Positions 17,533 to 48,548 of a DNA stretch of 64,000 nucleotides are shown here, one piece after another (within the stretch, counting starts at the first letter, position 1; every line of letters begins with the position of its first letter). A program made the translations under genes and the position numbers. The DNA comes from an uncultured Methanosarcinales archaeon (GTDB lineage: Archaea > Nanobdellota > Nanobdellia > Woesearchaeales > JABIAG01): contig CAZLQZ010000002.1 of the NCBI GenBank assembly GCA_964561995.1, positions 38,442 to 102,441 on the forward strand, written 5' to 3'. The notes beneath the pieces are model-generated. The model saw only the letters and a list, made by a program, of their open reading frames with translations, was not told the origin of the DNA and ran no database searches.

Positions 17533-19029
17533 TTGTTAATTATGAGCTATCTTAAAAAGGGGTTATTAGGTGTTATTTTAATATTTACTGCAACTACTTT
17601 AGGCAATATAGCAGGTTATTTTGTCAGATTAATTTTGGCTAGAAATATTACTCTTGAAGAAATTGGATTATTTTATTCCGTTTTCACATTAATTACTTTT
17701 GTACTTCTTTTTGTTAATATTGGTACAACTCCTGCTTTAATTAAATTCATTTCACAATTTAAAGCAGAAAAGAATTATGGCAAATTGTGGTATTCTATTA
17801 AGTTTGTTACAATTATTAAATTATTTTTAGCTGTTATTGCATCATTATTAATTTATTTTTCATCTAATTTTTTAGCTTTATATTATTTTAAGGATCCTGC
17901 TGCTCAATTAGTATTGCAAATTTTTTCAATTGTTTTGTTTTGTATTGTTGTTGTGGGATTAATGGGAGCTATATTTCAAGGTTTTCAAAGTATGATGACT
18001 TTATCTTTGATTCTTTTTAGTGAGAATCTTTTATTTTTATTATCAACAATTGTGTTAATTTTTTATGGTTTTGAAAAAAGTGCTTTGTTACCTTCTTATG
18101 GTTTTTTAGCAGGTTGGGGATTCACTATTTTGTTATTTTTGCCTTTTTTATTTCGTTATAAGAAATTTTTAGAAAAGGATATAAAAATCAATCATTTATC
18201 TAAAAAAATAATGAATTTTGCTTTAGCATCATTTTTAATTTCATTAGGTAATTTAATTATTGGATATTTAGATACTTTAATTTTAACTTTTTTTAGGCCA
18301 TTAAGTGAAGTTGGAGTTTACAATGTTGTTTTACCTACTGTTATAATAATTGGTTTTTTAAGTCGGTCTATTTCTCAAGTTTTTTTCCCAATGGTTTCAG
18401 AATTGTGGACTAAAGGATTAAAAAACAAATTAATTGAAGGTACTAATTTACTTCATAAATATTCAATGTTAACGGTAATACCTTTGTCAATGACTTTATT
18501 TGTTTTTCCTGAAATTTTATTGAATTTTTTGTTTGGTGCCGAATATGTAATTGGTAGTATGGTAATGAGAATACTTTCAGTAGGAATTATTTTTTTCACA
18601 ATTGGAACGGTGGATCAATCAATACTTTCAGGCATTGGAAAACCAAAAGTTGTTACAAAAATTCTTTTATTAGCAGCATTATTCAATGTGGTAACAAATT
18701 TTATATTTATTCCATATTATGGAATGTTGGCCGCGTCTATAACTACTACATTAAGTTACTTATTAATCTTTATTTTAACAACCTTAGCTCTTAAAAAACA
18801 TATTCAATTGAATTTTAAATATTTAGATTGGTTAAAATATTTTTCATCAGCGGTTGTATTTGTATTATCTGTTTATTTATTAAAAAACATTTTAAAATTC
18901 AATGCTATTTTAGAATTCTTTATTTGTTTAGTATTCGCTTCTTTAGTTTATTTAATTGTTTGTTATTTAGTTGGTTTATTAAATATTAAAGAAGTTAAAT
19001 TTTTCATCAAATCAGTATTGAAGAGATAA
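17533..19029 (+). CDS. Wzx/AglR-type oligosaccharide flippase (polysaccharide biosynthesis protein family)
   Basis: 498 aa, about 12-14 TM helices, MOP-superfamily-like layout, within the glycosylation cluster. Confidence 0.6.
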   Translation: MLIMSYLKKGLLGVILIFTATTLGNIAGYFVRLILARNITLEEIGLFYSVFTLITFVLLFVNIGTTPALIKFISQFKAEKNYGKLWYSIKFVTIIKLFLAVIASLLIYFSSNFLALYYFKDPAAQLVLQIFSIVLFCIVVVGLMGAIFQGFQSMMTLSLILFSENLLFLLSTIVLIFYGFEKSALLPSYGFLAGWGFTILLFLPFLFRYKKFLEKDIKINHLSKKIMNFALASFLISLGNLIIGYLDTLILTFFRPLSEVGVYNVVLPTVIIIGFLSRSISQVFFPMVSELWTKGLKNKLIEGTNLLHKYSMLTVIPLSMTLFVFPEILLNFLFGAEYVIGSMVMRILSVGIIFFTIGTVDQSILSGIGKPKVVTKILLLAALFNVVTNFIFIPYYGMLAASITTTLSYLLIFILTTLALKKHIQLNFKYLDWLKYFSSAVVFVLSVYLLKNILKFNAILEFFICLVFASLVYLIVCYLVGLLNIKEVKFFIKSVLKR

Positions 19030-28642: not shown

Positions 28643-31486
28643 TTAATTTGTTATTGATTCATTAATGTTTGTTTTAAAATAAACATTGTTCTTTGAGTTA
28701 CATTCCCAATCAACACTGTAAACATAAATTTTTCCACCCGTTATTTGTGTTTGTTCATCAAATAAGTTGAAACATTTTAAACCATGTCCTTGAGTAAAAA
28801 ACATTCTTGTAAACATACCATTGACTAATAATGGGTCTGTAAACATCATTTTATATGTGTTTCCGATTGGAATAATTAAAGCAGAAACTCCTATTTTGGA
28901 ATCGTTATACTTAATTTCATTACTTCCATTTTCATTCATGTAAACACTTGATGAAATGTGAATTTTTTCATCTCCTTGTAATACATAAGTTTCTTTTGAA
29001 GTTGTGTTAAAAATTAAAGGTATTTGATTTCCATTAAGTGTATTTACACATTGAAATGTTTCATCATTAACTTTTTGACAAGTATTTAAATTAGATACAT
29101 ATCCTGGCCAAGGACTAATCCATCTGTTAGCATCTTCTGTTCTTATTTCATCATAATATTGAAGTGCTTTTTCTTCATCTAATCCAAATTCCTCTTTTAA
29201 AATTGTAATTCCTTCTGATTCACTTTTTCCTTTTACTTTTTGAATCATTGAAGCTTTTTCAAAGTTCCAAGTTCCAAAATGCCCCCATACTCCCGATTTT
29301 CCAATCATATCTTCTGAAGCAATAACAAATGCTTCTGGAGGAGTACAATGAGAATTTTCAATAACTAAGTCTATTGTAGATTGACTTATGCTTTTGTTAT
29401 TTAAATAATTAATTGCTTCTTGTTTTTTCATTAAAATAATTTCTTTAATTATTTTTATACTTTGTAAGTCATTATTTAATTCTTTGTTAAGATATTTGTA
29501 TGCGTTGTTTCCGCCACAATCAATCATTCTTAAAATAGCTACTGATTCTTTTTCATTTGAAGTTTGTAATAATTTTCCTACCCAATGGGCCTGTGGTTTA
29601 TCTTGTGATGCACCATCAAAAGTTACTGATCTATCTGCAACATATTGGAACCAATGTCCAAAATCCCACCATGATGTGATGATTGCATTTTCATTAGATG
29701 AAATTTTAATGTTAGTTAAAGAACTCCACCATGCATCATTCATTGAAGGAATTTCATGAACTGCTTGATTATATCCTGCTTTGACTGGATTAATTAATAA
29801 AACAATTGCTAAAACAATAAAACAAACTTGTATAAAAATTTTGTTTATGTTTAATGCTTTTGGTATTTTTTTTGCTGCTAATTCATATAGTATTCCAATT
29901 AAACATCCAATAGCAATACTAAATGCTGGAACTAATAATAAAGTAAATCTTAAACCTTTTGTTGAACCATAAATTGTTCCTATAAACCAAACTGCTAAAA
30001 ATGCCATATATTTAATATCAACCTTTCCTTTTTTGTTTTTAATAAATAATGTTAATATTATTCCAAGAACTGCTAAGGCAAAAAATAAAGTGCCACCCAT
30101 TGCACTTATTGTTTGTTCTACTGAAGCAGGGTTTAATTCTGCAACTGTTGTTAAAACATTAGGCCAAATTTTTGTAGTTGCAACATCTTTAATATTAATA
30201 ATACTTAAAGGAAATCCTAAAAATGCATTGAAAAAATGGTTTATGCCTGCAAAAAAACCAGTATCATATAATATTCCAACTCCTAAAGTTGAAAAAATAA
30301 AGAATGGTAAACCAGTATTCATTAAATCTTTTATGTTTTGTTTAATTTCTTTTCTGTTTATAATTAATACATACATTAAGTAAATTATTATTGTTGCTAT
30401 TATAAAGTCAAATATGTACCACCATCCAGTCCAAAATCTGGAATAAATTCCTACACAAATTCCAGAAAGTGAACTTAAAATGATTTTTTTCTTTAATGTT
30501 TTAGCTTCAAAAGCTTCTAAAAATATCCAAGCAATTAATAATGGAAAAAATACATTATATGGGTCAGTGTCAGCAAAACCAGCCACTGTTCTTGTCATAA
30601 AAGCATTGTGAACAGCTAATAAAGTTGAACCTACTGTTGCTCCAAAATTTCCTGCAACTTTTTTAATTATAAAAAAACAAGGGATTATAGCTAATGTTGA
30701 AATTATTAATGGAACAAAGAATATTGCTCTTAATAAGTCATTATTGCCAAATATTTGTGATATTTTATATGTGAATAAGTTAATATAAATGTGCCAATTA
30801 TGGTCTGCTGGGTCTCCTAATGGTGCAACTCGATGATTGTTCCATGAAATTCCATCTCTAATTTCATCTCCTACATGACCATTTTCTATTAAATTTCTTG
30901 TATGTCTTGCATAATAATATGGGTCTATTGCTAATAAATAAGTTTGACCATCTTCATTTCTTAATCTTGATTTAAATGAATTTGCATAAAGTTCAATTCC
31001 TTGTTTGTAAGGTACTTGTGCAATTTGTCCATTTTGTGGTATGTAAACTTTATCTTTTTTTAGTTTAAACCATTCTTCTTCAATTAATTTATTTATATTT
31101 GCATCAGGTAAATTAGGATATTGTTGTTTAACTGATTGGGCAATAAGATTTTTATTAAAACTTTCAAGACTTCCTGCTGCGGATTCATCCATTAAGGGTA
31201 AGTGAGCGGGTTGAATTCTAATGAATATACTTAAAAAAATGGGAATTAATATTAATAATATAATTGAATATTTTTTTGTGAATGTTTGAGTCTCTTTCCA
31301 CCCTTTTTTGAAACTTTCTTTTACATCTACTTCATCATCGGATGTTTTTTCAGTTTTAATTTCTTCTTGTGAATCTTTTTTTTTTCCAAACCAACCTTTA
31401 ATTTTATCTTTTACTTTAGAAAAATCAATTTGAATTTCTTCATCTTTTTCTTTATGTTGTTGTTCTTCCATTTTTAAACCCCTCAC
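28643..31486 (-). CDS. aglB: archaeal oligosaccharyltransferase AglB (STT3 family)
   Basis: 947 aa. N-terminal 13-TM domain, WWDFGHW (a WWDYG-motif variant) and a large C-terminal soluble domain. Confidence 0.85.
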   Translation of the reverse strand: MRGLKMEEQQHKEKDEEIQIDFSKVKDKIKGWFGKKKDSQEEIKTEKTSDDEVDVKESFKKGWKETQTFTKKYSIILLILIPIFLSIFIRIQPAHLPLMDESAAGSLESFNKNLIAQSVKQQYPNLPDANINKLIEEEWFKLKKDKVYIPQNGQIAQVPYKQGIELYANSFKSRLRNEDGQTYLLAIDPYYYARHTRNLIENGHVGDEIRDGISWNNHRVAPLGDPADHNWHIYINLFTYKISQIFGNNDLLRAIFFVPLIISTLAIIPCFFIIKKVAGNFGATVGSTLLAVHNAFMTRTVAGFADTDPYNVFFPLLIAWIFLEAFEAKTLKKKIILSSLSGICVGIYSRFWTGWWYIFDFIIATIIIYLMYVLIINRKEIKQNIKDLMNTGLPFFIFSTLGVGILYDTGFFAGINHFFNAFLGFPLSIINIKDVATTKIWPNVLTTVAELNPASVEQTISAMGGTLFFALAVLGIILTLFIKNKKGKVDIKYMAFLAVWFIGTIYGSTKGLRFTLLLVPAFSIAIGCLIGILYELAAKKIPKALNINKIFIQVCFIVLAIVLLINPVKAGYNQAVHEIPSMNDAWWSSLTNIKISSNENAIITSWWDFGHWFQYVADRSVTFDGASQDKPQAHWVGKLLQTSNEKESVAILRMIDCGGNNAYKYLNKELNNDLQSIKIIKEIILMKKQEAINYLNNKSISQSTIDLVIENSHCTPPEAFVIASEDMIGKSGVWGHFGTWNFEKASMIQKVKGKSESEGITILKEEFGLDEEKALQYYDEIRTEDANRWISPWPGYVSNLNTCQKVNDETFQCVNTLNGNQIPLIFNTTSKETYVLQGDEKIHISSSVYMNENGSNEIKYNDSKIGVSALIIPIGNTYKMMFTDPLLVNGMFTRMFFTQGHGLKCFNLFDEQTQITGGKIYVYSVDWECNSKNNVYFKTNINESITN

Positions 31487-33612: not shown

Positions 33613-33669
33613 TTATTTTTTTATTAATAATTAATTATACTATATGTATTGCGCATTTGGGGGTTTAAA

Positions 33670-35697
33670 ATGAAAGCATTAAGATTTATATTGGTGATGA
33701 TGATTTTGGTAGTTTCATCTAGTTTCGCTTCGGCTTATGTAGATGTTACATTTAATTTTGATCAAAATAATGTACAGTCTTTAATTTATAATTGTTTAGA
33801 TGAAAATTGTAATAACGTAGCAAGTTTTTCAGGTACTTTTGAAAGTGAAACAACAGATGGTAATTTAGAAGTAATCTTTCCATCAACATTAATGTCTGAA
33901 TTTGGTTATGCTGTTTATTTCTTTTCAGAAGGTTACATACCTAAAGAATATGTTTCAACATTTCATTCATATGGGGATGATGAACATTACGAATTGTCTT
34001 ATGATATAGATTTTAATAAAGTTCAAGAATGTCAATCTTTAATTGATGAATTTACTGTTGTTAAAGATACTTTTGCTTATGAACCTTTACAAATTGATGT
34101 TAGTTCTTCATTAGATGCAGTTACTGCTTCCGCATTTTCTTCAATAAATAACGGTGTAGGATATGTTCCACAAGAAATGAAAGATGAATATTATTCTTCT
34201 GATGTTGAAGTTGAGCTTGTAATTGAAGATCAAAATGGAAATGTTGTTAAAACTTTAACTGAAGATTTTACAATTTATATGAATGAACAAGCAGATGTTG
34301 AATTTTCTTGGACTCCAGAAGATGAAGGAAAATATACAGCAACTGTAACTTCTAATGTTATAGATTCACAATGTTCTCTTCCGACTTTAGATGCTAGTTC
34401 TGCAAAAGAATTTAATGTATTACCTGGCAGACCTACTAATGAATATTATACTATTTTAAACGACTTGGATGTTGATAATTCATATCCCGTTGCAAAAGAA
34501 GAATTAACTTTTACTTATACAAAAATTAGTAACTATGCTGATTCAAATCATGATTTAACTCCAGTTGGAACTGAAGTTATTTATTATATCTATTATAATG
34601 GTGATTTAATCGATTCTTGGAATGATGTATTAAATGCAAATTCTGATTATATGAATCCAACTACTCAAACATTTACTTACACTCCAGAAAACTCTGGTCA
34701 GTATGTTGTAATTGTTGATGGTGTGGCATCAGATGACTTGAATAATGGCAATCCTAATAATTCAGAAAGAATTATTTTGAATTTTAATGTTGCAGATGTT
34801 CCAGCTTATGAAATTAGTTTCCAAGTAAGAGATTCAGTGTCTGGAGAAGCAATTGAAAATGCTTTAATTACTATTAACGGACAAGTTTCTGGTACTACTG
34901 ATTTAATGGGTGCATTAACATTTGTAGGTCTAGAATCTGGAACTTATACTTATGTAAGTGAACATGATAATTATCAAACAAGAGATGGTAGTGTTCAAGT
35001 TATTAATGGAAATATGGAAGTTTATTTTACTATGGTTTCAACATCGATTGATGATCCTGTAGACCCAATAGACCCTGTTGACCCTCCAGTAACTACTGAT
35101 ATTACTTTTACAAATAATCCTTTAACAATTGCTTATGTTGCAGTACCATACGAATTTGATTTAGATGCAATAAGTTCTAATTCTAATTCAATTACTTTTG
35201 AAAAAGTAAATGGTCCCGATAGTTTAACTGTTGGAAGTAATGGCCAAATTGAATGGTTGCCATTGCCTCATGACATTGGTGTTCATACAGTTAAAGTAAA
35301 GGCAAATGATGGCTCAGGGGTTAATTATCTTGAATGGGCAATAGATGTTAAATCTAAAATGTCAGAACAAGACCCAGAAATTAATGAATTAAGTGTTATT
35401 CAAATTAGATTTCCAAATGGTTACTTAATCAAATCTGGAAGCGCATTAGCTGTTTCAGTGATGGTTGAAAATACTGGTGACTATGACTTAGATGATGTAA
35501 GATTACAAGTGTCTGTACCTTCTTTAGGTTTAATGAGAAGTGTAGGACCTTTTGATGTAGATGAAAATGACGAAGAACAAAGAACAGTAATGTTAGATAT
35601 TCCTAAAGGAGTTAGTGAAGGAGAATATGAATTAAGGATAGTGATAGGCAATGAAGACTATAGGGCTGTGAAATACAGACCTTTTGGGATTAACTAA
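33670..35697 (+). CDS. secreted acidic cell-surface protein (S-layer/adhesin candidate)
   Basis: Signal peptide MKALRFILVMMILVVSSSFASA. D/E-rich. DPVDPIDPVDPP linker. GGGGGT SD 7 nt upstream of the ATG at 33670 (the ORF track begins at an upstream TTG). Confidence 0.45.
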   Translation: MKALRFILVMMILVVSSSFASAYVDVTFNFDQNNVQSLIYNCLDENCNNVASFSGTFESETTDGNLEVIFPSTLMSEFGYAVYFFSEGYIPKEYVSTFHSYGDDEHYELSYDIDFNKVQECQSLIDEFTVVKDTFAYEPLQIDVSSSLDAVTASAFSSINNGVGYVPQEMKDEYYSSDVEVELVIEDQNGNVVKTLTEDFTIYMNEQADVEFSWTPEDEGKYTATVTSNVIDSQCSLPTLDASSAKEFNVLPGRPTNEYYTILNDLDVDNSYPVAKEELTFTYTKISNYADSNHDLTPVGTEVIYYIYYNGDLIDSWNDVLNANSDYMNPTTQTFTYTPENSGQYVVIVDGVASDDLNNGNPNNSERIILNFNVADVPAYEISFQVRDSVSGEAIENALITINGQVSGTTDLMGALTFVGLESGTYTYVSEHDNYQTRDGSVQVINGNMEVYFTMVSTSIDDPVDPIDPVDPPVTTDITFTNNPLTIAYVAVPYEFDLDAISSNSNSITFEKVNGPDSLTVGSNGQIEWLPLPHDIGVHTVKVKANDGSGVNYLEWAIDVKSKMSEQDPEINELSVIQIRFPNGYLIKSGSALAVSVMVENTGDYDLDDVRLQVSVPSLGLMRSVGPFDVDENDEEQRTVMLDIPKGVSEGEYELRIVIGNEDYRAVKYRPFGIN

Positions 35698-35801
35698 TAA
35701 GTAGTTATTTATTTTAACTACTACTGTATACTAAAATACATAAAGCTTTAAAAACATGCAAGAATTAACATTCAAAATTAGCATGGGGGTATAACAAGAA
35801 A

Positions 35802-37055
35802 ATGAAAGGAAACATAAAAATTGGTATTTTGTTGGTTTTAGTGGCACTATTAGCTATTGGTTCTGTTAGTGCATTACCTGACGTAGAATACATAAAAATT
35901 AACGGTGATCAGTATGAAAATGGTGATTCCGTTGTAGTTGAGAAAGGCGACGATTTAGAAATTAAAGTAAAACTTCAAGCAGATGTGAGTTATGACAATC
36001 TTGAAGTTGAAGCTGATATAATCGGTTATGAATACAATGATATTGATGAAATCTCAGACTCTACTCATACATTTGATGTAGATGCTGGTGATACTGTTTA
36101 TAAGGAATTAGATTTAACAATTCCAAGTAAAGCTGATAAAGATTATTATGATCTTAGAATCAGAGTTAGCGGTAGAACTGGATCTTCTGTAGAATATTTA
36201 ATGAGAGTTAATCTTAAAGGTTCAAGACATGATCTTGAAGTTAAAAGAGTGATGCTTCATCCATCTAATGCTGTTGATGCAGGTAGCTATTTACTAGTTA
36301 ATGCAAAAATAACAAATAGGGGAGAAGAATCCGAAGAAGAAGATGTAAGAGTTACTGCAAGAATCGAAGATTTAGATCTTGAAGACACTACTTATATTAA
36401 CGAAATTGAAGAAGACGAATCAAAAACTTCAGAAGAATTATTCCTAAGAATTCCAGCATGTGCTGAAGCAGGAATTTATGAAGTTGAAGTTGAAGTTGCT
36501 TATGATGAAGATTCAGAAGTAGTTACTGAAATTGAAACAATTGAAATAAGAGAATCAGATCTATGCAATGCTGCAGATGATGATACTGAATCCGTAATTT
36601 CAGTTGGTTCACAAACACAACAAGTAACTGCTGGAGAAGGTGGGGCTACTTATTCACTTTCAATAACAAATCCAAGCAACTCTGATAGATCTTATACATT
36701 AAGCGTTTCAGGTCTAGATTCATGGGGTACATTTAGAGTGGACCCAGCAACAACTCAAATTGTTAAAGCTGGTGAAACAGAAGCAATGTTCGTATTTGTT
36801 TCCGCAAAAGATGACGCAACAGAAGGTCAACAAAGTTTTGTTGTAAATGTTGTATCTGGAGACGAATCAGAAGCTGTTCAATTTTATGCAAATGTTGTTA
36901 AAGATGAAAGCAACATTAGAAAATGGGCAGAATTCGTACTAATTGCTTTGGTTGTACTGTTAATAATCTTAGGACTAATCGTTGGCTTCAGTAGAATGAG
37001 AAATAAACCTGAAGACGATGAAGACGAAGATCTAACAGGTCAAACATATTATTAA
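35802..37055 (+). CDS. secreted very acidic surface protein with a C-terminal TM anchor
   Basis: Signal peptide, extreme D/E content, C-terminal TM helix plus acidic tail. GGGGGT upstream. Followed by a hairpin/T-tract terminator. Confidence 0.45.
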   Translation: MKGNIKIGILLVLVALLAIGSVSALPDVEYIKINGDQYENGDSVVVEKGDDLEIKVKLQADVSYDNLEVEADIIGYEYNDIDEISDSTHTFDVDAGDTVYKELDLTIPSKADKDYYDLRIRVSGRTGSSVEYLMRVNLKGSRHDLEVKRVMLHPSNAVDAGSYLLVNAKITNRGEESEEEDVRVTARIEDLDLEDTTYINEIEEDESKTSEELFLRIPACAEAGIYEVEVEVAYDEDSEVVTEIETIEIRESDLCNAADDDTESVISVGSQTQQVTAGEGGATYSLSITNPSNSDRSYTLSVSGLDSWGTFRVDPATTQIVKAGETEAMFVFVSAKDDATEGQQSFVVNVVSGDESEAVQFYANVVKDESNIRKWAEFVLIALVVLLIILGLIVGFSRMRNKPEDDEDEDLTGQTYY

Positions 37056-37077
37056 ATATTTTTTTTTCTTTTAACAT

Positions 37078-37111
37078 CCAGTCCTGGTTATGCCCCTTTG
37101 GACTGGTTTTT
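37078..37111 (+). terminator. hairpin (CCAGTCC/GGACTGG) followed by T5, preceded by a T9 tract, after the acidic surface-protein gene
   Basis: Perfect 7-bp inverted repeat with a 15-nt loop, then TTTTT. T9 run at 37058-37068. Confidence 0.45.
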
Positions 37112-37127
37112 AAAGTTTTTTAAGGGT

Positions 37128-39185
37128 ATGAAAAACATGAAATTCAAGATTTTTTTAATATTATTGGCTTTTATATTAGTTCTTCCTAATGTATATTCTT
37201 TTGATACTTGGACTACTTCAGTTTCTTTATGTGATTGTGGTATTGATAGTCAAGAATTATATATTTTTAATACTGGCAAAGATAATACCTTCTTAATAGA
37301 TATTAGTGGTGATGCAAAAAATTGGGTTAGTTTATCTGATAATTCTATTTTTTTGGAATCTGGAGAAAGAACAAGTGTTAGTTTGAATTATAAAGTTCCG
37401 TGTGGAGGTAAAGATTCAAATATTATTTTTAAAGTTACTCCGCTTGGTGAACAATCAAAAGAATTAAATCAAAAATTAATAGTTAATGAATGTTCAAATA
37501 TTCAAATAATACCTATCAAAACATTTGATATTGATTGTCCTTGTAAAGAATTAGAGTATCAATTTAAAATTAAAAATACTGGATCTTTTCAAGAAAAATA
37601 TACTTTTGATTCTTCTAAATTTAAAGAAGAAATGATTTTTATTCCTTCAACTGTTTTATTAAATCCTGGACAAGAAGTTGTTGTTACAGCCGTTTTAAAG
37701 GCAGAATGCAAGGTATCTGGTAAATATTCATATGATATTAATGTTTTAGCAGAATATAATGAACTTAAGACCTCTTTTTCTGTTGGCGCTGAAATCAAGC
37801 CTTGTTATGGTTATTCCTTGTCTGCGGGAGAAATAGGGAGTTCATTTGAATCTCAGCAAGGTTTGTATAATGTATGTGTTGGAACTGAGAATTCTATTCC
37901 TTTGTTAATAACAAATGATGCTGATTTTAATAATAGTTATGATCTTTCTTTAAGGGGTAAGTTTGCAACATTACAAAATAAAAATGTTGAAATTGGTTCT
38001 AGTAAAAGTATTTTGACAAATATTTTATTTAATCCAGCTAATGTTGGTAATTATACTTTATTTTTAGAATCAAAATCAAAATTAGGTAAGTTAAAAGGAA
38101 AGTTTAAATTACCGATTATCGTTGAAGATTGTTACAATTTGGAAATTATTATGCCAAGTAAGGTTGAAGTGAATAGTTCTATTGTTCCTATCTTATTAAA
38201 AAACACTGGTACAAAGGAATTAAATGCATTAATTGCTGTATCTGGTAGTGAATTTGTTTCAGTTGATAATGGTGCTTTGACAATTAATGGTGAAAAGGTA
38301 ATTAATCTAGTTTTACAAGACCCGGGTAAATCACTGGTTGAAAATGTTAAAGTATCAGTACAGTTAGATAATGGTGATGTAAAAAATAAAAATTTAAAAT
38401 TGGTATTTGGAAAACCTTTCTTTTATACTTATGGTGTTTTTATTATTTTGGGAATAATTATCTTGATTATTTTAATTATATTTATTGTTTATGTTATTTC
38501 AAAGAGACCTAAAAAAGAAAAAATTAAGAAAGAAAAAAGAATAAAATCTATTGATCGAATTAAAGAGACAGTAATTGAAAATAAAACTAAAAAGAAAGTG
38601 AAAGATAAATCTAAAGAAAAAAAGAACTCCGGTTCTGGTTTTAAGATCTTTTTGTTTGTTGCCTTAATACTTTTAATTTTGATATTTATTTTTTCTCTTC
38701 CAATTCAAACTGTTTCGCCAAATTTATCTGAAAGACAAGTGGGAAAAATGTTAGAACAAAAATGGCCTGTTAATAAAATTTTAAGAACAGATTTAAATGA
38801 ACTTTTTTCTAATTCCTCTTTAAATTTACAATCTAGCGATAAAGTTAATGTTCAAATGATTGGAAAAGTTGCTTATTTATATCCTTCTTCTAATTGGACT
38901 GGTTCAAATTTTTTAGATTTAATTGTTAATAATAAGTCTGAAAAAGTATTTTTTACAATTGAAGGAGCTGTTAATGAAACTTATTTTCAACAAGGAACTT
39001 ATGTTTATGGTACTTTAAGTTATCTTGTTTATGATTATGTTAGAATTCCTATTGTTTTGATAATTGTTGTGTTGGTAATTATTTTGATTATTTTTATAAT
39101 TTTTAAAGCAATTAAATCTAAAAATAAACCTAAAAAAAGTAAGAAAAATAAGGATACTAGGCTGACAACAATAGTTGTTAAATAA
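37128..39185 (+). CDS. large surface/membrane protein with two internal TM segments and Lys-rich spacers
   Basis: Signal peptide (MKFKIFLILLAFILVLPNVYS if translation starts at 37137). TM helices at about residues 440-465 and 515-535 flanking a K-rich segment. The ORF track begins at an upstream TTG. Confidence 0.4.
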   Translation: MKNMKFKIFLILLAFILVLPNVYSFDTWTTSVSLCDCGIDSQELYIFNTGKDNTFLIDISGDAKNWVSLSDNSIFLESGERTSVSLNYKVPCGGKDSNIIFKVTPLGEQSKELNQKLIVNECSNIQIIPIKTFDIDCPCKELEYQFKIKNTGSFQEKYTFDSSKFKEEMIFIPSTVLLNPGQEVVVTAVLKAECKVSGKYSYDINVLAEYNELKTSFSVGAEIKPCYGYSLSAGEIGSSFESQQGLYNVCVGTENSIPLLITNDADFNNSYDLSLRGKFATLQNKNVEIGSSKSILTNILFNPANVGNYTLFLESKSKLGKLKGKFKLPIIVEDCYNLEIIMPSKVEVNSSIVPILLKNTGTKELNALIAVSGSEFVSVDNGALTINGEKVINLVLQDPGKSLVENVKVSVQLDNGDVKNKNLKLVFGKPFFYTYGVFIILGIIILIILIIFIVYVISKRPKKEKIKKEKRIKSIDRIKETVIENKTKKKVKDKSKEKKNSGSGFKIFLFVALILLILIFIFSLPIQTVSPNLSERQVGKMLEQKWPVNKILRTDLNELFSNSSLNLQSSDKVNVQMIGKVAYLYPSSNWTGSNFLDLIVNNKSEKVFFTIEGAVNETYFQQGTYVYGTLSYLVYDYVRIPIVLIIVVLVIILIIFIIFKAIKSKNKPKKSKKNKDTRLTTIVVK

Positions 39186-44007: not shown

Positions 44008-44121
44008 TGGGGATGTGAGGATTTGAACCCCAATCCGTCGGTATCTTCAAAAATCATTGACTTTCGTCTCATATTTCCATTGTTGGAGCCGACTATTCTA
44101 GCCAGATTATACTACATCCCC
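44008..44121 (-). tRNA. tRNA-Trp (anticodon CCA) with a ~40-nt intron 3' of position 37
   Basis: Reverse complement reads GGGGATG...CATCCCC-A (acceptor), a GG-containing D-loop, anticodon stem GTCGG/CCGAC with loop CUCCAA(intron)A, and T-arm TGGGG-TTCAAAT-CCTCA. The D-stem is weak and AT-rich, hence moderate confidence. Confidence 0.65.
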
Positions 44122-44164: not shown

Positions 44165-44434
44165 CTACCAATTGGGTATTTCTTTAAGTTTTTTTGAACT
44201 TTCGACTGCATATCTTGCTTTTTTTTTGGAAGTATAAATTGAAAATGGTTTAAAATTTTCTTTAGTTTCTACTAATTCTTTTTTTTCATTAAGGAAGTAT
44301 ACATTTATTGGAAAAAATACAAAACATGTGTGTAAGTTAATGTTCATTTCCTTGCCTAAATCTAAAACTATTGTTTTTTTCTTAGAAAACATCAGACCTT
44401 TTGTTAAACTAAATATGTTGTTACAAATTTTCAT
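44165..44434 (-). CDS. small hypothetical protein, possibly DUF192-like
   Basis: 89 aa. KGLMF motif reminiscent of DUF192. 4-nt overlap with the upstream gene. Confidence 0.25.
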   Translation of the reverse strand: MKICNNIFSLTKGLMFSKKKTIVLDLGKEMNINLHTCFVFFPINVYFLNEKKELVETKENFKPFSIYTSKKKARYAVESSKKLKEIPNW

Positions 44435-44814
44435 TGTACAAGTATTTCCATTTTATTGATTTTGCCATTTCTTTTTAATTCTTCTATGTATCTGTAAAAT
44501 GATGCTTTTGAACAGTATTTTTGTTGGTCAACTATTATTTCTTTAATTTCTGGTATTGATTGATTTATTTCTAATTGTTCTATTATTTTTTGTTTGATTA
44601 TGCCTTTTTTATTTCTATTAAGTTTGTTATTTATTTCAGTTTGGAGGGTTGGAGCAATTTTCACATTTTGTATTTTTCCTTCCAAGTGTATAATTTTTTC
44701 TTTTAATTCTTTATTTTCTGACTTTATTTTATTTATGTCTGATTTTAAAAAATCTATGTCTTTTTTTATTTTGGAAAAACTTTCTTTCAGTGCTTCTTTT
44801 AGTTCTGTTTCCAT
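44431..44814 (-). CDS. small coiled-coil protein with a C-terminal winged-helix-like DNA-binding segment
   Basis: Heptad-rich N-terminus (LKEALKESFSKIKKDIDFLKSDINKIKSENKELKEKIIHLEGKI). C-terminus SKASFYRYIEELKRNGKI resembles a wHTH recognition region. Its start abuts the GAGACT array. Confidence 0.3.
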   Translation of the reverse strand: METELKEALKESFSKIKKDIDFLKSDINKIKSENKELKEKIIHLEGKIQNVKIAPTLQTEINNKLNRNKKGIIKQKIIEQLEINQSIPEIKEIIVDQQKYCSKASFYRYIEELKRNGKINKMEILVQ

Positions 44815-44857: not shown

Positions 44858-45009
44858 GAGACAAGTCTGAGACTAGTCTCATTTGAGACTGGGACTTTGG
44901 TGAGACTAGCTTGAGACTGATTTCTCCACAGGAAATGGGGGGGTGTCTGAGACTTCTCTGAGACTGTCCTGAGACTCTTCTGGGGCTGGCTTGAGACTAT
45001 TTTGAGACT
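44858..45009. repeat. array of about 10 TGAGACT heptamers with mostly 11-bp (or 22-bp) spacing, including the palindrome GAGACTAGTCTC. Iteron/operator-like.
   Basis: GAGACT at 44869, 44885, 44902, 44913, 44949, 44960, 44971, 44993 and 45004, plus GAGACA at 44858. Spacings are 16, 17, 11, 36, 11, 11, 22 and 11. Local GC is well above the window average. Confidence 0.6.
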
Positions 45010-45122
45010 TTATTTATTTGCCCAGGCCTTTTTAGACGTTAATTAGTCAATAGATTCTCAAATGGTCTTTGAGTACTAGATTTACACAAAATTTATATAG
45101 TATTTTTAAGATTTAACTTCTT

Positions 45123-47663
45123 ATGAAGAAATCTATATCTTTTCTTATCTGTATGTTGTTTTTAGCTAGTTTTGTATCTGCCGGATATTCTTCTAACGCT
45201 CATACTGCTACGGTTTCTTGGGTAGTTCCTATTCCTACTCAAATATATGAACACAGTAAAAGTGCATTTATGCTTAAAGTTGATAATGGTCTTGGTGCTG
45301 GAAATAAAAGTATTGATTTTGTAAGTTTGAACACATATAATTTTGAAGTTCAACCAATTACGCCAAATAATTGGAATTTGATTTCAAGTCAATTTACTTC
45401 AAATTGGTCAACAAATCTTGTTGCACTTGCAAATGGTGCTTCTCAAATATTTCAATTTAATCTTACTGCTCCTAATGTAATTGGCAATACGGTATATAAT
45501 GTAACTATCCTTACTAATGATACTGTTTCAAGTCAAAATATCAATAATCTTTCAATTACTGTACTTAATGATGTAATTCCTCCAAGATATACTATTATAA
45601 ACCCATTAAATGCAACAATTGTTAAAAATGAAACTATTTTGTTTAATATTACTTATACTGAATCAGAATCTGGATTTAATAATGGAAGTTTAATATACAA
45701 TTATACTTCTTTGCTTTTTGAATCAGAATTAAAAAATTATTTGTTGATGGATTGTGTTATAAATAGTTGTAATACTTTTCTTAATATTACAAAATTAGAA
45801 TCCTTTTTTAGTTTAAAGTTTAATTTGACAGATAAGGCTGGCAACCATAATGAAACTCCTTACATTTGGTTGTATGTAGATGTCGATTCTCCAACAATTA
45901 ACAATATTTTTCCAGATGATGGATTTAATACTAGTTTAGAATTGTTTAACGTAACTGTTAATGTTTCTGATGATTCATTTAGTTTAGATTCTGGATTTTC
46001 TCCCTTAGTTAATTGTAGTGTTAATATTGATAATATTTATTTTTCAAGTGTAACTTTTAATTCTAATAATACTAAATCAATTGAATCTAACATTTCATCT
46101 TTAATCGATGGAAATCATTCGTGGTATGTTGAATGTGTAGATAAGACTGGGTGGAATACTGTTTCTTCAAATAGAACTTTTAAATTTGATACTACGGGTC
46201 CTGTTATTTCATTAATTAATCCTTTAAACAATTCTGTTATTGAAGAGGGATCAATTGTAAATCTTAATGTTGTTGATGGTTTAAGTGATGTTGATGTAGT
46301 TTGGTATACTAATTCAAGTAATAATGTAACTATTAATCCATATAATGTTAATACTAGTGGGTGGAGTTACGGAATTAATTATTTAAATGTCTTTGCAAAT
46401 GATTCTTTAGGTAATTTAGGTCAAAATTTGTTTACTTTTAAAGTTGATAATTTAGGTCCAAGTATAATTTTATTACATCCTAATAATAATTCCTTATCAA
46501 ATTCAGTAAGATTTAATGCTACTGATGAATTTAGTTTTAATTTAAGTTGTAATTTGTTAATTAATGGTAGTATTAATCAAACTGTTATTGCACAGAATTC
46601 AACTGAAAAATAAATTAATTTAAGTTTAATTGATGGATCTTACAGATGGCAAATTAATTGTTCTGATATTTTTAACAATTCAAATGCAAGTGAAGTTAGA
46701 GTAATTAAATTAGATAATACTGTTCCCTTTATAGAAATAATATCTCCATTAAATAATAGTAATGGTCAAACAGTTAATGTATCTTATAATTATACTGAAA
46801 ATAATTTAGCAAATTGTAGTGTTTATGTTAATGGTGTTTTAAATAAAACTAGTAATGGGAATAATTTTACAATTAATTTATCTTCATCTAATTTAGAACA
46901 AATAATTAATGTTTCTTGTTTGGATCTTGCAGGTAATGTTGGTTGGAGTGACGATGCTATAGTTTATCATGATAATATCAGTCCTGTTTTGGGAAATACT
47001 TCTGTATTTGTAACTTATAACTCTGCAAAAATTAATTGGAGTGTAAGTGAAATAGCTAATAATAGTGTAAATTATACTCATTCAGGTAATAATAATTCAT
47101 TTTTAACTTATGGTAATCTTAATGCTTTTGCAGAAGTTAATTTAACAAGTTTAGGTGCCAATACTCTATATTTTTATTATGTAAGTTCTTGTGATAAATT
47201 CAATCAATGTTCAAATAGTAGTTTATTAAATTTTACAACAACTTTTGCTCCATCAAGTCCTAGTTCTAGTGGTGGCGGTGGTAGTAGTAATGATGATTCA
47301 GAAGATGATACTGATTTTATTTGCTATGAAGAATGGATTTGCGGACCTTGGTCTAGTTGTGTAGATGGTGAAGAAACAAAAAAATGTTTTGATGGTAATA
47401 ATTGTGGGACTGATGATGATAAACCTGAAATGTCTAGAGAATGTGAATTAGTCTTGGAAGAAAATGATGATGGAGATACTTCTGACGATGTAAATGTTTT
47501 GGGTAATGAAACTCAAGAAAATGGTTTGGGTGGAGTAACTGGTGCTTTTTTAGGTATTAATTCATTTACTTGGTTTGGAATAATTGGTTTATTTTTAATA
47601 ATCATAATTCTCTTGATTTGGTTGTATATATCTAAAAGAAAAATTAAAGTTGAATTAGATTAA
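45123..47663 (+). pseudogene. sequon-rich surface glycoprotein (signal peptide ... Ser/Gly/Asp linker ... C-terminal TM anchor) whose 846-codon frame is interrupted by one in-frame TAA at 46611-46613
   Basis: ORFs 45123-46613 and 46920-47663 are in the same frame. Translating 46614-46919 by hand gives no further stops. Only the first part has a signal peptide and only the last has the TM anchor. There are more than 30 N-x-S/T sequons. Repeated ~100-aa modules begin with I-x-P-L-N-x-S/T. Confidence 0.5.
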
Positions 47664-48548
47664 ACTTTCAAATTCTTTTAAGAATTTTTTTACAATTTCT
47701 TTTTCTCTGATTATGATTATGTTCTCATCATTTATTTTATTTCCCGAACCTGTTGGGTTATAGCTGCCTGTTATTACTGTATTGTTATCTATAATGAATG
47801 TTTTATGATGTAGTGTATGAGGATTAGAATCTAAAAAAACTTCAAAGCTCGAGTTCATAAATTTAAACTTATTGTATTTCATATTTATTCTTTTTTTTTC
47901 CATTACGCCTTTTACTTCAATATCTTTACTTTTTTCAATTAATAGCTGAGCAATATCTTGATCTGTAAAAGAAAATGTCATAAAGTAAATGCTTTCTTTT
48001 GCTTTTTTTAATTCATTTAAAACTTTTTCTTGACAATTATCTTCAGGACAAAAATAATTGTTTAATATTTTATTGTTTAAAACAATAGTTGGATATTTCA
48101 CCTTACTTCCTTTTCCATAAACTTCATAATCTAATTCTTTGAATTCATCCAAGTAATTTTTAGCTAAATAATCTGATTCAATGATTAATACATTGTTGTT
48201 ATTTTTGTAATTGCCATTTAATGTGGGGTTCATGCTTCCAGTCCAGATTATGCTATTATTTATAATGCAAAATTTGTTGTGCATTAGACCGCTTTTTCTT
48301 TTATGAATTATTAGTTCATCGACATTGTCTTTTATTTCTTTTAAGTTTAAATCATAGAAAGCACATTTTACTTCTGAGTTTTTTGTTAGTTTGACAAACT
48401 CATTTGAGCAGTTAGTTTTTGGACAAAAAAATACTGTTGTTTTTCCTTGTTCTGTTGGAATTGGATTCTGAACAATTTCAGCAGTAAAATTATTCAAACT
48501 ACAAGCTGTTAGTAATAATAATAATAGTAAAAGTATTGCATATTTCAT
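47655..48548 (-). CDS. secreted/lipoprotein phospholipase D-family protein with two HKD motifs
   Basis: HNKFCII...GSMN and HHKTFII...GSYN HKD motifs. N-terminal LLLLLLLTACSL lipobox-like signal. 9-nt convergent overlap with the surface-protein gene. Confidence 0.65.
   Translation of the reverse strand: MKYAILLLLLLLLTACSLNNFTAEIVQNPIPTEQGKTTVFFCPKTNCSNEFVKLTKNSEVKCAFYDLNLKEIKDNVDELIIHKRKSGLMHNKFCIINNSIIWTGSMNPTLNGNYKNNNNVLIIESDYLAKNYLDEFKELDYEVYGKGSKVKYPTIVLNNKILNNYFCPEDNCQEKVLNELKKAKESIYFMTFSFTDQDIAQLLIEKSKDIEVKGVMEKKRINMKYNKFKFMNSSFEVFLDSNPHTLHHKTFIIDNNTVITGSYNPTGSGNKINDENIIIIREKEIVKKFLKEFESLI

What the first reader, a model, noticed from the sequence alone, without database searches (positions are those of the whole stretch)
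45123..47663. Heavily N-glycosylatable surface protein whose 846-codon reading frame is split by a single in-frame TAA
Hand translation shows that ORFs 45123-46613 and 46920-47663 share a frame, and the 306 nt between them are open. Only the first half carries a signal peptide. Only the second carries the Ser/Gly/Asp-rich stalk and C-terminal TM anchor. The protein has more than 30 N-x-S/T sequons and repeated ~100-aa Ig-like modules that begin I-x-P-L-N-x-S/T, which makes it an obvious AglB substrate. TAA, TAG and TGA are each used as normal stops elsewhere in the window, so this is not a recoded stop. Possible explanations are a recent nonsense mutation (which could produce an on/off surface variant in a population), a sequencing or assembly error, or programmed readthrough.
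Basis: seen in the sequence. Interest (0 to 1): 0.55.

Follow-up and report, generated by a model that had tools for sequence, protein, structure and literature searches.

The report
Surface glycoprotein gene broken by nonsense codon
A roughly 850-residue, heavily glycosylatable cell-surface protein gene of an uncultured DPANN (Woesearchaeota-like) archaeon carries one premature TAA stop in the middle of a folded domain; this is most likely an ordinary, recent nonsense mutation, not a new way of decoding.

Summary
Window 45123-47663 (+) is one 846-codon frame with a single TAA at 46611-46613. The signal peptide is only upstream of it. The Ser/Gly linker, a 6-Cys module and the TM anchor are only downstream. 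There are 55 N-x-S/T sequons, against 23.6±4.0 expected from composition.

At least 25 homologues of 837-947 aa from Woesearchaeota-type MAGs and metagenomes align end to end as single ORFs. All have a sense residue or a gap at the stop column. The stop lies in a loop inside an Ig-like beta-sandwich (residues 446-535) and separates the family-invariant Cys476 from Cys513. The downstream part has no in-frame start for 102 codons, no SD-like motif and no signal peptide.

The same split is on record from contigs of four different lengths, and the Logan re-assembly is 100% identical across the stop. An assembler artefact is therefore unlikely.

TAA ends 36 of 52 ORFs in the window, there is no RNA structure downstream (z=0.18), and the stop is not conserved, so programmed readthrough has no support. 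The 349 downstream codons show no decay, so the mutation is recent.

Verdict: an ordinary nonsense allele (a young pseudogene or a truncated secreted form) of an unnamed archaeal surface-glycoprotein family. Read-level heterogeneity could not be tested. Low interest.

The parts
45093..45100 (+). TATA-box-like TTTATATA about 22 nt upstream of the ATG. No SD-like motif follows, which suggests a leaderless or near-leaderless transcript (inferred).
   Evidence: Read directly from the sequence. Homologous loci have TTTATATA/CTTTATAAAA plus a GAGGGTGAT/GGTG Shine-Dalgarno motif instead.
45123..45185 (+). Sec-type signal peptide (residues 1-21, MKKSISFLICMLFLASFVSAG).
   Evidence: Hydropathy windows 3-6 exceed 1.6. 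AF2 helix 3-18. All homologues start with MKK plus a hydrophobic stretch.
45123..46610 (+). Upstream 496 codons: signal peptide, N-terminal beta domain (residues 22-153), Ig-like modules 1-3 (154-446) and the first four strands of module 4.
   Evidence: (Big_13 E=1.4e-4, below the Pfam cut-off).
46458..46727 (+). Ig-like module 4 (residues 446-535), the folded unit that the stop interrupts. Family-invariant Cys476 lies before the stop and Cys513 after it.
   Evidence: AF2 strands 447-452, 463-467, 473-480, 483-491 | stop at 497 | 505-514, 520-522, 526-530, with pLDDT about 90. Invariant columns C476 and C513 in the 26-sequence alignment.
46611..46613 (+). Premature in-frame TAA (codon 497), context GAA AAA TAA ATT AAT.
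   Evidence: Identical in the Logan re-assembly. Homologues have T, S, N, Q, E, F, R, I, Y, V or L at this column.
46614..47660 (+). Downstream 349 open codons, probably untranslated now: rest of module 4, module 5 (535-621), FN3-like domain (621-706), S/G linker, Cys module, acidic stalk, TM anchor and tail.
   Evidence: (Big_7, Pur_ac_phosph_N, both weak).
46920..47663 (+). The 247-aa 'second ORF' as called by ORF finders and gene callers. Its TTG 'start' is Leu600 inside module 5 (VSCLDLAGN), so it is an artefact of the ORF definition and not an independent gene.
   Evidence: No SD-like purine run upstream. No signal peptide.
47253..47288 (+). Ser/Gly linker SSPSSSGGGGSS (residues 711-722).
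   Evidence: Conserved as SPSSSxGGGGGG in the family. pLDDT below 50.
47322..47444 (+). Six-Cys module (residues 734-774), C-x-E-x-W-x-C-x-x-W-S-x-C-x-x-G-x-x-T-[KR]-x-C-x-D-x-N-x-C-G-T-x3-K-P-x5-C.
   Evidence: Family consensus. No Pfam or NCBIfam hit.
47565..47630 (+). C-terminal transmembrane anchor (residues 815-836), followed by the short basic tail SKRKIKVELD.
   Evidence: Hydropathy and AF2 helix 818-836. Most homologues have a longer tail with KEEExIRxKLRxxGLIK, which is absent here.

Best explanation
The gene encodes a member of an unnamed family of roughly 840-950-aa cell-surface glycoproteins found in Woesearchaeota-type DPANN archaea. The family architecture is: signal peptide, N-terminal beta domain, five Ig-like modules separated by D-x-x-x-P, one FN3-like domain, a Ser/Gly linker, a 6-Cys module, an acidic stalk and a C-terminal TM anchor.

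In this organism a single-base substitution has turned a sense codon into TAA at codon 497. One-step precursors are TCA Ser, CAA Gln, GAA Glu, AAA Lys, TTA Leu and TAT/TAC Tyr; Ser, Gln, Glu, Leu and Tyr all occur at this column in relatives.

Translation therefore ends in a loop inside Ig-like module 4. At most, the cell makes a secreted, unanchored, N-glycosylated fragment of about 475 aa with an incomplete last domain. The 349 downstream codons, including the anchor, are not translated apart from background misreading. The allele is a young pseudogene or truncated variant that dominates the sampled population.

Shown: the stop, its position inside a domain, the single-ORF state of all relatives, the lack of an independent start or signal for the second half, its reproducibility across assemblies, and normal TAA usage. 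Inferred: the direction and recency of the mutation, the fate of the truncated product, and glycosylation by the AglB encoded in the window.
For: (1) There is a single TAA in an otherwise open 846-codon frame.
(2) Homologues of 854-921 aa align collinearly across the stop. An exhaustive profile search finds at least 22 further or overlapping 50%-identity clusters of 837-947 aa that match the profile end to end in one stretch. The window's N-terminal half (P0001, profile 12-500) is the only listed hit that ends at the stop position. In the 26-sequence alignment, all 25 relatives have a sense residue (T7, S6, N2, and one each of Q, E, F, R, I, Y, V, L) or a gap there.
(3) The stop sits between AF2 strands 483-491 and 505-514 of one beta-sandwich (pLDDT about 90) and between invariant Cys476 and Cys513.
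(4) The downstream part has no in-frame ATG/GTG/TTG for 102 codons. The TTG at 46920 is an internal Leu with no SD-like motif, and there is no signal peptide.
(5) The split products (486/496 aa plus 247 aa) are on record from contigs of 34.7, 52.3, 107.2 and 154.3 kb (Logan, JGI/IMG, ENA, NCBI). The Logan contig is 100% identical over 551 nt around the stop.
(6) There is no decay downstream. All family-invariant residues are retained. The downstream/upstream identity ratio to homologues is 1.04, against 1.11±0.09 among the homologues themselves. 4.9% of random substitutions downstream would create a further stop, so P(still open) is about 0.07 at 5% neutral divergence, which points to a recent event.
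(7) No other gene in the 64-kb window is split, so the assembly is not generally error-ridden.
Against: No reads were available, so it is unknown whether a sense allele coexists in the population, or whether the four contigs derive from independent read sets.

No close relative (above 40% identity) exists in any searched collection. The ancestral codon and the age of the mutation therefore cannot be measured directly.

The perfectly preserved downstream half fits recency. It would equally fit continued expression by readthrough, or a consensus error.
Confidence: 0.78

Rival explanations
1. Population polymorphism or an on/off surface variant. Both a sense allele and the TAA allele circulate in the population, and the assemblers report the commoner one. 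Loss of the anchored protein would be selected in some cells, for example to escape a virus or to change host attachment.
For: The downstream half is fully intact, as expected for a very young or balanced allele. Surface proteins of DPANN symbionts carry the highest non-synonymous SNP densities in single-cell population data (PMC6142677).
Against: All assemblies on record carry the split, and no intact allele exists in the 5.8-billion-cluster protein collection. There is no mutational switch at the site: only an A5 run, which would shift the frame rather than create an in-frame stop, and no convincing inverted repeats around the promoter. This is a sub-case of the best explanation rather than a true alternative.
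Confidence: 0.12
2. Sequencing, assembly or consensus error. The organism really has a sense codon and an intact 846-aa protein.
For: It is a single-base difference. The downstream reading frame is perfectly preserved. The source is a metagenome-assembled sequence.
Against: The same split products occur on contigs of four different lengths from four sources. An independent Logan re-assembly of the raw reads is identical base for base. No other gene in the window is broken. Substitution errors rarely survive in short-read consensus (established knowledge).
Confidence: 0.06
3. Programmed or efficient natural readthrough of UAA yields two isoforms: a secreted 496-aa form and a membrane-anchored 846-aa form.
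For: The downstream frame is intact and retains all family-invariant residues. Adenines immediately 5' of the stop (GAA AAA UAA) mildly favour readthrough in yeast, and UAA can be misread by Gln, Tyr and Lys tRNAs in eukaryotes (own knowledge; PMC4150775 was listed but not read in full).
Against: UAA is the main terminator in this window (36 of 52 ORFs). The stop is followed by A; a purine at +4 generally favours termination (own knowledge). The 121 nt downstream show no RNA structure beyond shuffles (z=0.18). None of 25 relatives has a stop at this column. The stop lies inside a domain and not at a linker where two isoforms would make structural sense. No suppressor tRNA is present in the window; the only tRNA is an intron-containing tRNA-Trp(CCA). 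No UAA recoding is known in archaea (own knowledge).
Confidence: 0.03
4. Two genuine genes: the lineage has evolved a separate secreted N-terminal protein and a separately translated C-terminal anchored protein.
For: Gene callers annotate two ORFs.
Against: The 102 codons after the stop still encode the rest of module 4 and most of module 5, with 12 sequons. The called start is an internal Leu codon without an RBS or signal peptide. No relative is organised as two genes.
Confidence: 0.01

Closest known systems
Unnamed Woesearchaeota-type surface protein family (e.g. P0004, 'hypothetical protein J4228_02705, Candidatus Woesearchaeota archaeon', 918 aa; also P0002, P0003, P0005-P0007, P0036, ...)
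   Same: The alignment is collinear end to end at 31-38% identity. Shared features: signal peptide, N-terminal domain, D-x-x-x-P-delimited Ig-like modules with conserved Cys pairs, FN3-like domain, SPSSS-GGGG linker, 6-Cys module, TM anchor and high sequon density.
   Different: This copy has a premature TAA at codon 497. It lacks the conserved cytoplasmic tail KEEExIRxKLRxxGLIK. It has the highest sequon density of the set (6.5 against 1.5-4.8 per 100 aa). Its genomic neighbours differ: NrdR-NrdD-NrdG/tRNA-Trp and PLD here, against ThrRS...SpoIIM for P0003 and P0004.
Archaeal S-layer glycoproteins / membrane-anchored surface glycoproteins that are AglB substrates
   Same: Sec signal peptide, many N-x-S/T sequons, a Ser/Gly- or Thr-rich stalk next to a C-terminal membrane anchor, and an AglB gene plus glycan-synthesis genes in the same genome region.
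   Different: No sequence or fold match to any characterised S-layer protein; Foldseek returns only generic Ig/FN3 chains. No PGF-CTERM motif. Lattice formation and abundance are unknown.
Bacterial Ig-like domain families (Pfam Big_13 PF19077, Big_7 PF17957) in giant adhesin-like proteins
   Same: The modules are beta-sandwiches with weak Big_13 and Big_7 matches. Thousands of 2,000-7,000-aa repeat proteins match the family profile through these modules.
   Different: The matches here fall below the Pfam gathering scores (22.7 against 27 bits; 19.6 against 24.1). The family has a fixed number of modules and its own N- and C-terminal domains.
Nonsense-mutated (unitary) pseudogenes of prokaryotic surface proteins
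   Same: A single premature stop in an otherwise intact gene whose relatives are uninterrupted; a surface-exposed product.
   Different: Nothing distinguishes it in kind. The only open points are whether it is fixed in the population and whether the truncated product is used.

Membership tests
Woesearchaeota-type ~900-aa Ig-repeat surface glycoprotein family (unnamed) | End-to-end collinear similarity to the family profile, from signal peptide to TM anchor | tested here: met
   31-38% identity over 78-96% of the query to P0002-P0007. 32 columns are invariant across the 26 sequences, on both sides of the stop.
Woesearchaeota-type ~900-aa Ig-repeat surface glycoprotein family (unnamed) | Encoded as one uninterrupted ORF | tested here: not met
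   TAA at codon 497. All 25 aligned relatives are uninterrupted. It is therefore a disrupted member of the family.
Woesearchaeota-type ~900-aa Ig-repeat surface glycoprotein family (unnamed) | Cytoplasmic tail motif KEEExIRxKLRxxGLIK after the TM helix (present in most members) | tested here: not met
   The tail here is SKRKIKVELD. Several other members (P0006, P0007, P0070, P0120, P0143) also lack the motif.
Pfam Big_13 (PF19077) bacterial Ig-like domain | Score at or above the gathering threshold (27 bits) | tested here: inconclusive
   22.7 bits, E=1.4e-4, residues 293-357. Homologues carry precomputed PF19077 hits. The AF2 model shows beta-sandwich modules.
Archaeal S-layer glycoprotein | Signal peptide, N-glycosylation sequons, C-terminal membrane anchor | tested here: met
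Archaeal S-layer glycoprotein | Forms the paracrystalline envelope lattice; most abundant envelope protein | not testable with these tools
   Needs microscopy or proteomics. Foldseek against the PDB gave no S-layer match among the top hits.
Archaeal S-layer glycoprotein | PGF-CTERM / archaeosortase sorting signal (haloarchaeal type) | tested here: not met
   No PGF motif in the protein.
Programmed stop-codon recoding (Sec, Pyl or readthrough) | The stop codon is UGA (Sec) or UAG (Pyl), or the codon is reassigned genome-wide | tested here: not met
   The codon is UAA, and UAA terminates 36 of 52 window ORFs.
Programmed stop-codon recoding (Sec, Pyl or readthrough) | The in-frame stop is conserved in orthologues | tested here: not met
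   0 of 25 relatives have a stop at that column. No close sister genome is available.
Programmed stop-codon recoding (Sec, Pyl or readthrough) | A stimulatory RNA structure or context 3' of the stop | tested here: not met
   The MFE of 46600-46720 is -13.9 kcal/mol against -14.4±2.9 for shuffles, z=0.18. The +4 base is A.
Nonsense-mutation pseudogene | Relatives have a single ORF; the stop lies inside a folded domain; the downstream part has no start or signal of its own | tested here: met
Nonsense-mutation pseudogene | The stop is supported by the reads and is the fixed or majority allele | not testable with these tools
   Indirect evidence only: the same split on contigs of four lengths from four sources, and an identical Logan re-assembly.
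Phase-variable contingency locus | A hypermutable simple-sequence repeat or invertible element at the switch site | tested here: not met
   Only an A5 run precedes the stop. No convincing invertible-promoter repeats; the best inverted repeat is 25 nt at 72%.

The most novel reading that the evidence does not exclude
The TAA is deliberately leaky. A DPANN archaeon would then make both a shed, soluble N-terminal glycoprotein and, by low-level UAA readthrough, a membrane-anchored full-length form from one gene. That would be the first case of functional UAA readthrough in archaea. A milder variant: the truncated allele is kept in the population as an adaptive surface-off variant.
Probability: 0.03. 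Interest if true: 0.7.

Novelty: new member of a known kind. Interest (0 to 1): 0.15.

Why it matters
If the best explanation holds, the practical value is modest, and it lies mainly in annotation. The two called ORFs (496/486 aa and 247 aa) should be merged and flagged as one disrupted gene. The protein also defines, together with at least 25 relatives, an unnamed and conserved surface-glycoprotein family of Woesearchaeota-type archaea with no Pfam or NCBIfam model. That family is a reasonable candidate for the main envelope or attachment protein of these episymbionts and a likely substrate of the AglB encoded 14 kb away. Loss of its anchor in a natural population would be one small data point on surface-protein turnover in DPANN archaea. 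It would matter for translation biology only if readthrough were shown.

Tried and rejected
- Suppressor tRNA nearby. The only tRNA in the window (44008-44121, minus strand; missed by ARAGORN, found by Rfam) is an intron-containing tRNA with anticodon CCA (Trp), so it is not a suppressor.
- A second TAA-split surface gene. The pair 35802-37055 / 37098-39185 shares a frame across one TAA, but these are two complete genes.
- Sister genomes. A scan of GTDB representative genomes and a scan of JGI metagenome contigs with six peptide patterns found only about 34-36% identical Ig-repeat regions. In the two GTDB loci these lie inside roughly 3,180-aa giant proteins. No close relative turned up.
- Exact look-up of the 496-aa product in the contig index returned nothing, and the same was true of the Leu-start 247-aa version. 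The 486-aa and Met-start versions were found.
- Readthrough-stimulating RNA structure: none.
- Bacterial-type promoter and terminator scan: uninformative for an archaeon, with 26 hits against 21.5 expected.
- Fold search of the whole model against the PDB gave only generic Ig/FN3 chains such as Robo2, contactin, alpha-2-macroglobulin and GhpA.
- NCBIfam: no family for the protein or its homologue P0004.
- Are the promoter-proximal direct repeats a family feature? They were seen upstream of P0004 and P0002 but not upstream of P0005, P0007 or P0003, so the idea was rejected.
- Literature search for SRR8526173: no paper found.
Full report
**Observation.** Translating window 45123-47663 (+) gives 847 codons with one internal stop, TAA at codon 497 (46611-46613, context TCA ACT GAA AAA TAA ATT AAT), and the terminal TAA. 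The mechanical ORFs are 45123-46613 (496 aa) and 46920-47663 (247 aa, TTG). The 306 nt between them are open and contain no in-frame ATG, GTG or TTG. This openness is not chance. None of 2000 shuffles of the downstream 1047 nt stays open, and the other two frames never exceed 44 open codons. The only hydrophobic segments are the N-terminal signal peptide (residues 1-21) and the C-terminal helix (residues 815-836). The Ser/Gly linker, a six-Cys module and an acidic stalk all lie after the stop. There are 55 N-x-S/T sequons (33 before and 22 after the stop), against 23.6 ± 4.0 in composition-preserving shuffles and 0-1.9 per 100 aa in every other ORF of the window. Six D-x-x-x-P boundaries divide the protein into modules. 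The I-x-P-L-N-x-S/T start motif occurs three times exactly and once in degenerate form. TAA, TGA and TAG end 36, 11 and 5 of the 52 ORFs of at least 150 aa.

**Organism and setting.** The window has 23-31% G+C. It carries an intron-containing tRNA-Trp(CCA) that only the covariance model detects. The closest relatives of the protein are from Candidatus Woesearchaeota MAGs. This is therefore a DPANN-type archaeon. Upstream lie NrdR, NrdD, NrdG, the tRNA and two small minus-strand ORFs. Downstream lie a convergent PLD-like gene that overlaps the 3' end by 9 nt, a sodium:solute symporter and a Lon-like protease. About 14-38 kb upstream there is a glycan-synthesis cluster. It includes an STT3/AglB oligosaccharyltransferase (28643-31486, minus strand, E=4e-47), four glycosyltransferases, a DegT aminotransferase, an epimerase, an oxidoreductase, an acetyltransferase, two methyltransferases and a flippase. 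N-glycosylation of this protein is therefore plausible, though inferred.

**What the gene is.** The 846-residue conceptual protein has full-length relatives of 854-921 aa at 31-38% identity that align collinearly across the stop. An exhaustive profile search of 1.84 billion cluster representatives lists many more proteins of 837-947 aa that match the profile end to end in a single stretch. The window's N-terminal half (P0001, profile 12-500) is the only listed hit that ends at the stop position; a few other short hits (for example P0091, P0097, P0111 and P0164) cover other parts of the profile. In a 26-sequence alignment, all 25 relatives have a sense residue at the stop column (T 7, S 6, N 2, and one each of Q, E, F, R, I, Y, V, L) or a gap. 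Single-step precursors of TAA (TCA, CAA, GAA, TTA, TAY) are among these residues. The family has no Pfam or NCBIfam model of its own, and only sub-threshold Big_13, Big_7 and Pur_ac_phosph_N matches appear. An AlphaFold2 model (mean pLDDT 71.7) is all-beta up to residue 706, then disordered linker, a small Cys-rich unit and a TM helix. Foldseek finds only generic chains of Ig/FN3 domains.

**Where the stop falls.** Residue 497 lies in the loop between strands 483-491 and 505-514 of the beta-sandwich that spans residues 446-535, modelled at pLDDT about 90. It also lies between the family-invariant Cys476 and Cys513. It is therefore not at a domain boundary. The downstream 'ORF' begins at a TTG that encodes Leu600 inside module 5. 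It has no SD-like motif and no signal peptide. 'Two genuine genes' can be dismissed.

**Is the stop real?** The split products are on record from contigs of 34.7 kb (Logan re-assembly of SRR8526173), 52.3 kb (JGI/IMG), 107.2 kb (ENA) and 154.3 kb (NCBI/JGI). The Logan contig is identical to the window over 551 nt around the stop. No intact allele exists in the protein collections. No other gene in the window is disrupted. An assembler artefact is therefore unlikely. Whether the four contigs rest on independent reads could not be established.

**Is it decoded?** There is no evidence for that.
- UAA is the principal terminator here.
- The +4 base is A.
- The RNA downstream folds no better than shuffles (z=0.18).
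- The stop is not conserved in any relative.
- The only tRNA nearby is tRNA-Trp.
- Alignment shows no insertion at the site, so an intervening sequence is excluded.

**Age.** The downstream half keeps all invariant residues. Relative to the upstream half, it is as similar to homologues (ratio 1.04) as is typical among the homologues themselves (1.11 ± 0.09). About 4.9% of random substitutions there would create another stop, so the frame would probably be broken again after a few percent of neutral divergence: P(open) is 0.35 at 2% and 0.07 at 5%. The mutation is therefore recent, or the allele is still segregating.

**Conclusion.** The most likely explanation (about 0.78, plus about 0.12 for the segregating-variant sub-case) is an ordinary, recent nonsense mutation. 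It converts a membrane-anchored surface glycoprotein into, at best, a shed fragment of about 475 aa ending in half a domain. Error (about 0.06) and programmed readthrough (about 0.03) are not excluded but lack support. The finding is real and well described, but it is of a familiar kind. Its practical consequences are an annotation fix (one disrupted gene, not two ORFs) and the recognition of an unnamed, conserved surface-protein family in Woesearchaeota-type archaea. The decisive test is a read pile-up at 46611-46613, which could not be run here.

**Side observations.** All ten copies of TGAGACT in the 64-kb window lie within 142 nt of the divergent intergenic region just upstream of this gene, mostly 11 or 22 nt apart. 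The array is not shared by homologous loci, and its role is unknown. Three neighbouring genes whose products have signal-peptide or TM features or surface-type domains (33649-39185) carry far fewer sequons than this protein, and two of them almost none.

Noticed in passing
window 44868-45009 (intergenic, between minus-strand ORF 44431-44814 and the glycoprotein ATG at 45123): All 10 copies of TGAGACT in the 64-kb window cluster in 142 nt: 9 on the plus strand and 1 on the minus strand, which forms the palindrome TGAGACTAGTCTCA. Successive spacings are 16, 17, 11, 36, 11, 11, 22 and 11 nt, and TRF reports periods of 11 and 22. The region is richer in G+C than its surroundings and has a G7 run in the middle. 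It looks like a helically phased array of protein-binding sites upstream of the TATA box. There is no Rfam match, and RNA folding z-scores are only -1.8 and -2.2. The array is not present upstream of homologues P0005, P0007 or P0003.
   Followed up: partly
window 44431-44814 (-) and 44165-44434 (-): Two small ORFs are transcribed divergently from the glycoprotein gene. One is a 127-aa coiled-coil protein with a faint HTH_11 match, a candidate binder of the TGAGACT array. The other is an 89-aa DUF192/PRK03760-like protein (NCBIfam E=4e-13, below cut-off).
   Followed up: partly
window 44008-44121 (-): tRNA-Trp (anticodon CCA) with an intron of about 40 nt after the anticodon. Rfam finds it (41.1 bits), but ARAGORN in bacterial mode reports no tRNA in the window.
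   Followed up: yes
window ~7165-31486: A large glycan-synthesis / N-glycosylation cluster: YfhO-like membrane protein (12622-14982), AsnB-like amidotransferase (14945-16705), Wzx-type flippase (17533-19029), two methyltransferases, an epimerase/dehydratase, a GFO/IDH/MocA oxidoreductase, a hexapeptide acetyltransferase, a DegT aminotransferase, three GT4 and one GT2 glycosyltransferases, and STT3/AglB (28643-31486, minus strand, 947 aa).
   Followed up: partly
window 33649-35697, 35802-37055, 37098-39185 (+): Three consecutive genes have surface-type features. The first is a 682-aa CarboxypepD_reg-domain protein. The second is a 417-aa CARDB/FixG_C Ig-like protein with a signal peptide and TM anchor. 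The third is a 695-aa protein with a signal peptide and TM segments. They have 1, 0 and 9 sequons; the first is depleted relative to its composition (z=-3.0). This contrasts sharply with the 55 sequons of the studied protein.
   Followed up: no
L006 5800-5960 (upstream of P0004) and L008 270-370 (upstream of P0002): Two homologous genes also have short, species-specific tandem direct repeats just upstream of their TATA boxes: TGAAATCAATGA-like and TTCATTTTCAAAAC x2 in L006, GTTTCAATTGGAATGTGTGT x3 and TGACATATTACTAAC x2 in L008. Both share a strong SD, AAAAGAGAGGGT(A/G)AT. Three other homologous loci lack such repeats.
   Followed up: partly
L002 1746-11279 and L003 1662-11204: Giant ORFs of about 3,180 aa in a Woesearchaeota MAG and in a MAG labelled Methanosarcinales carry the same type of Ig-like module. 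The profile search lists thousands of 2,000-7,700-aa repeat proteins built from these modules.
   Followed up: no
window 47655-47663: The 3' end of the glycoprotein gene overlaps the convergent PLD-like gene (47655-48548, minus strand) by 9 nt. This copy also lacks the roughly 45-aa cytoplasmic tail with the KEEExIRxKLRxxGLIK motif that most family members have.
   Followed up: partly
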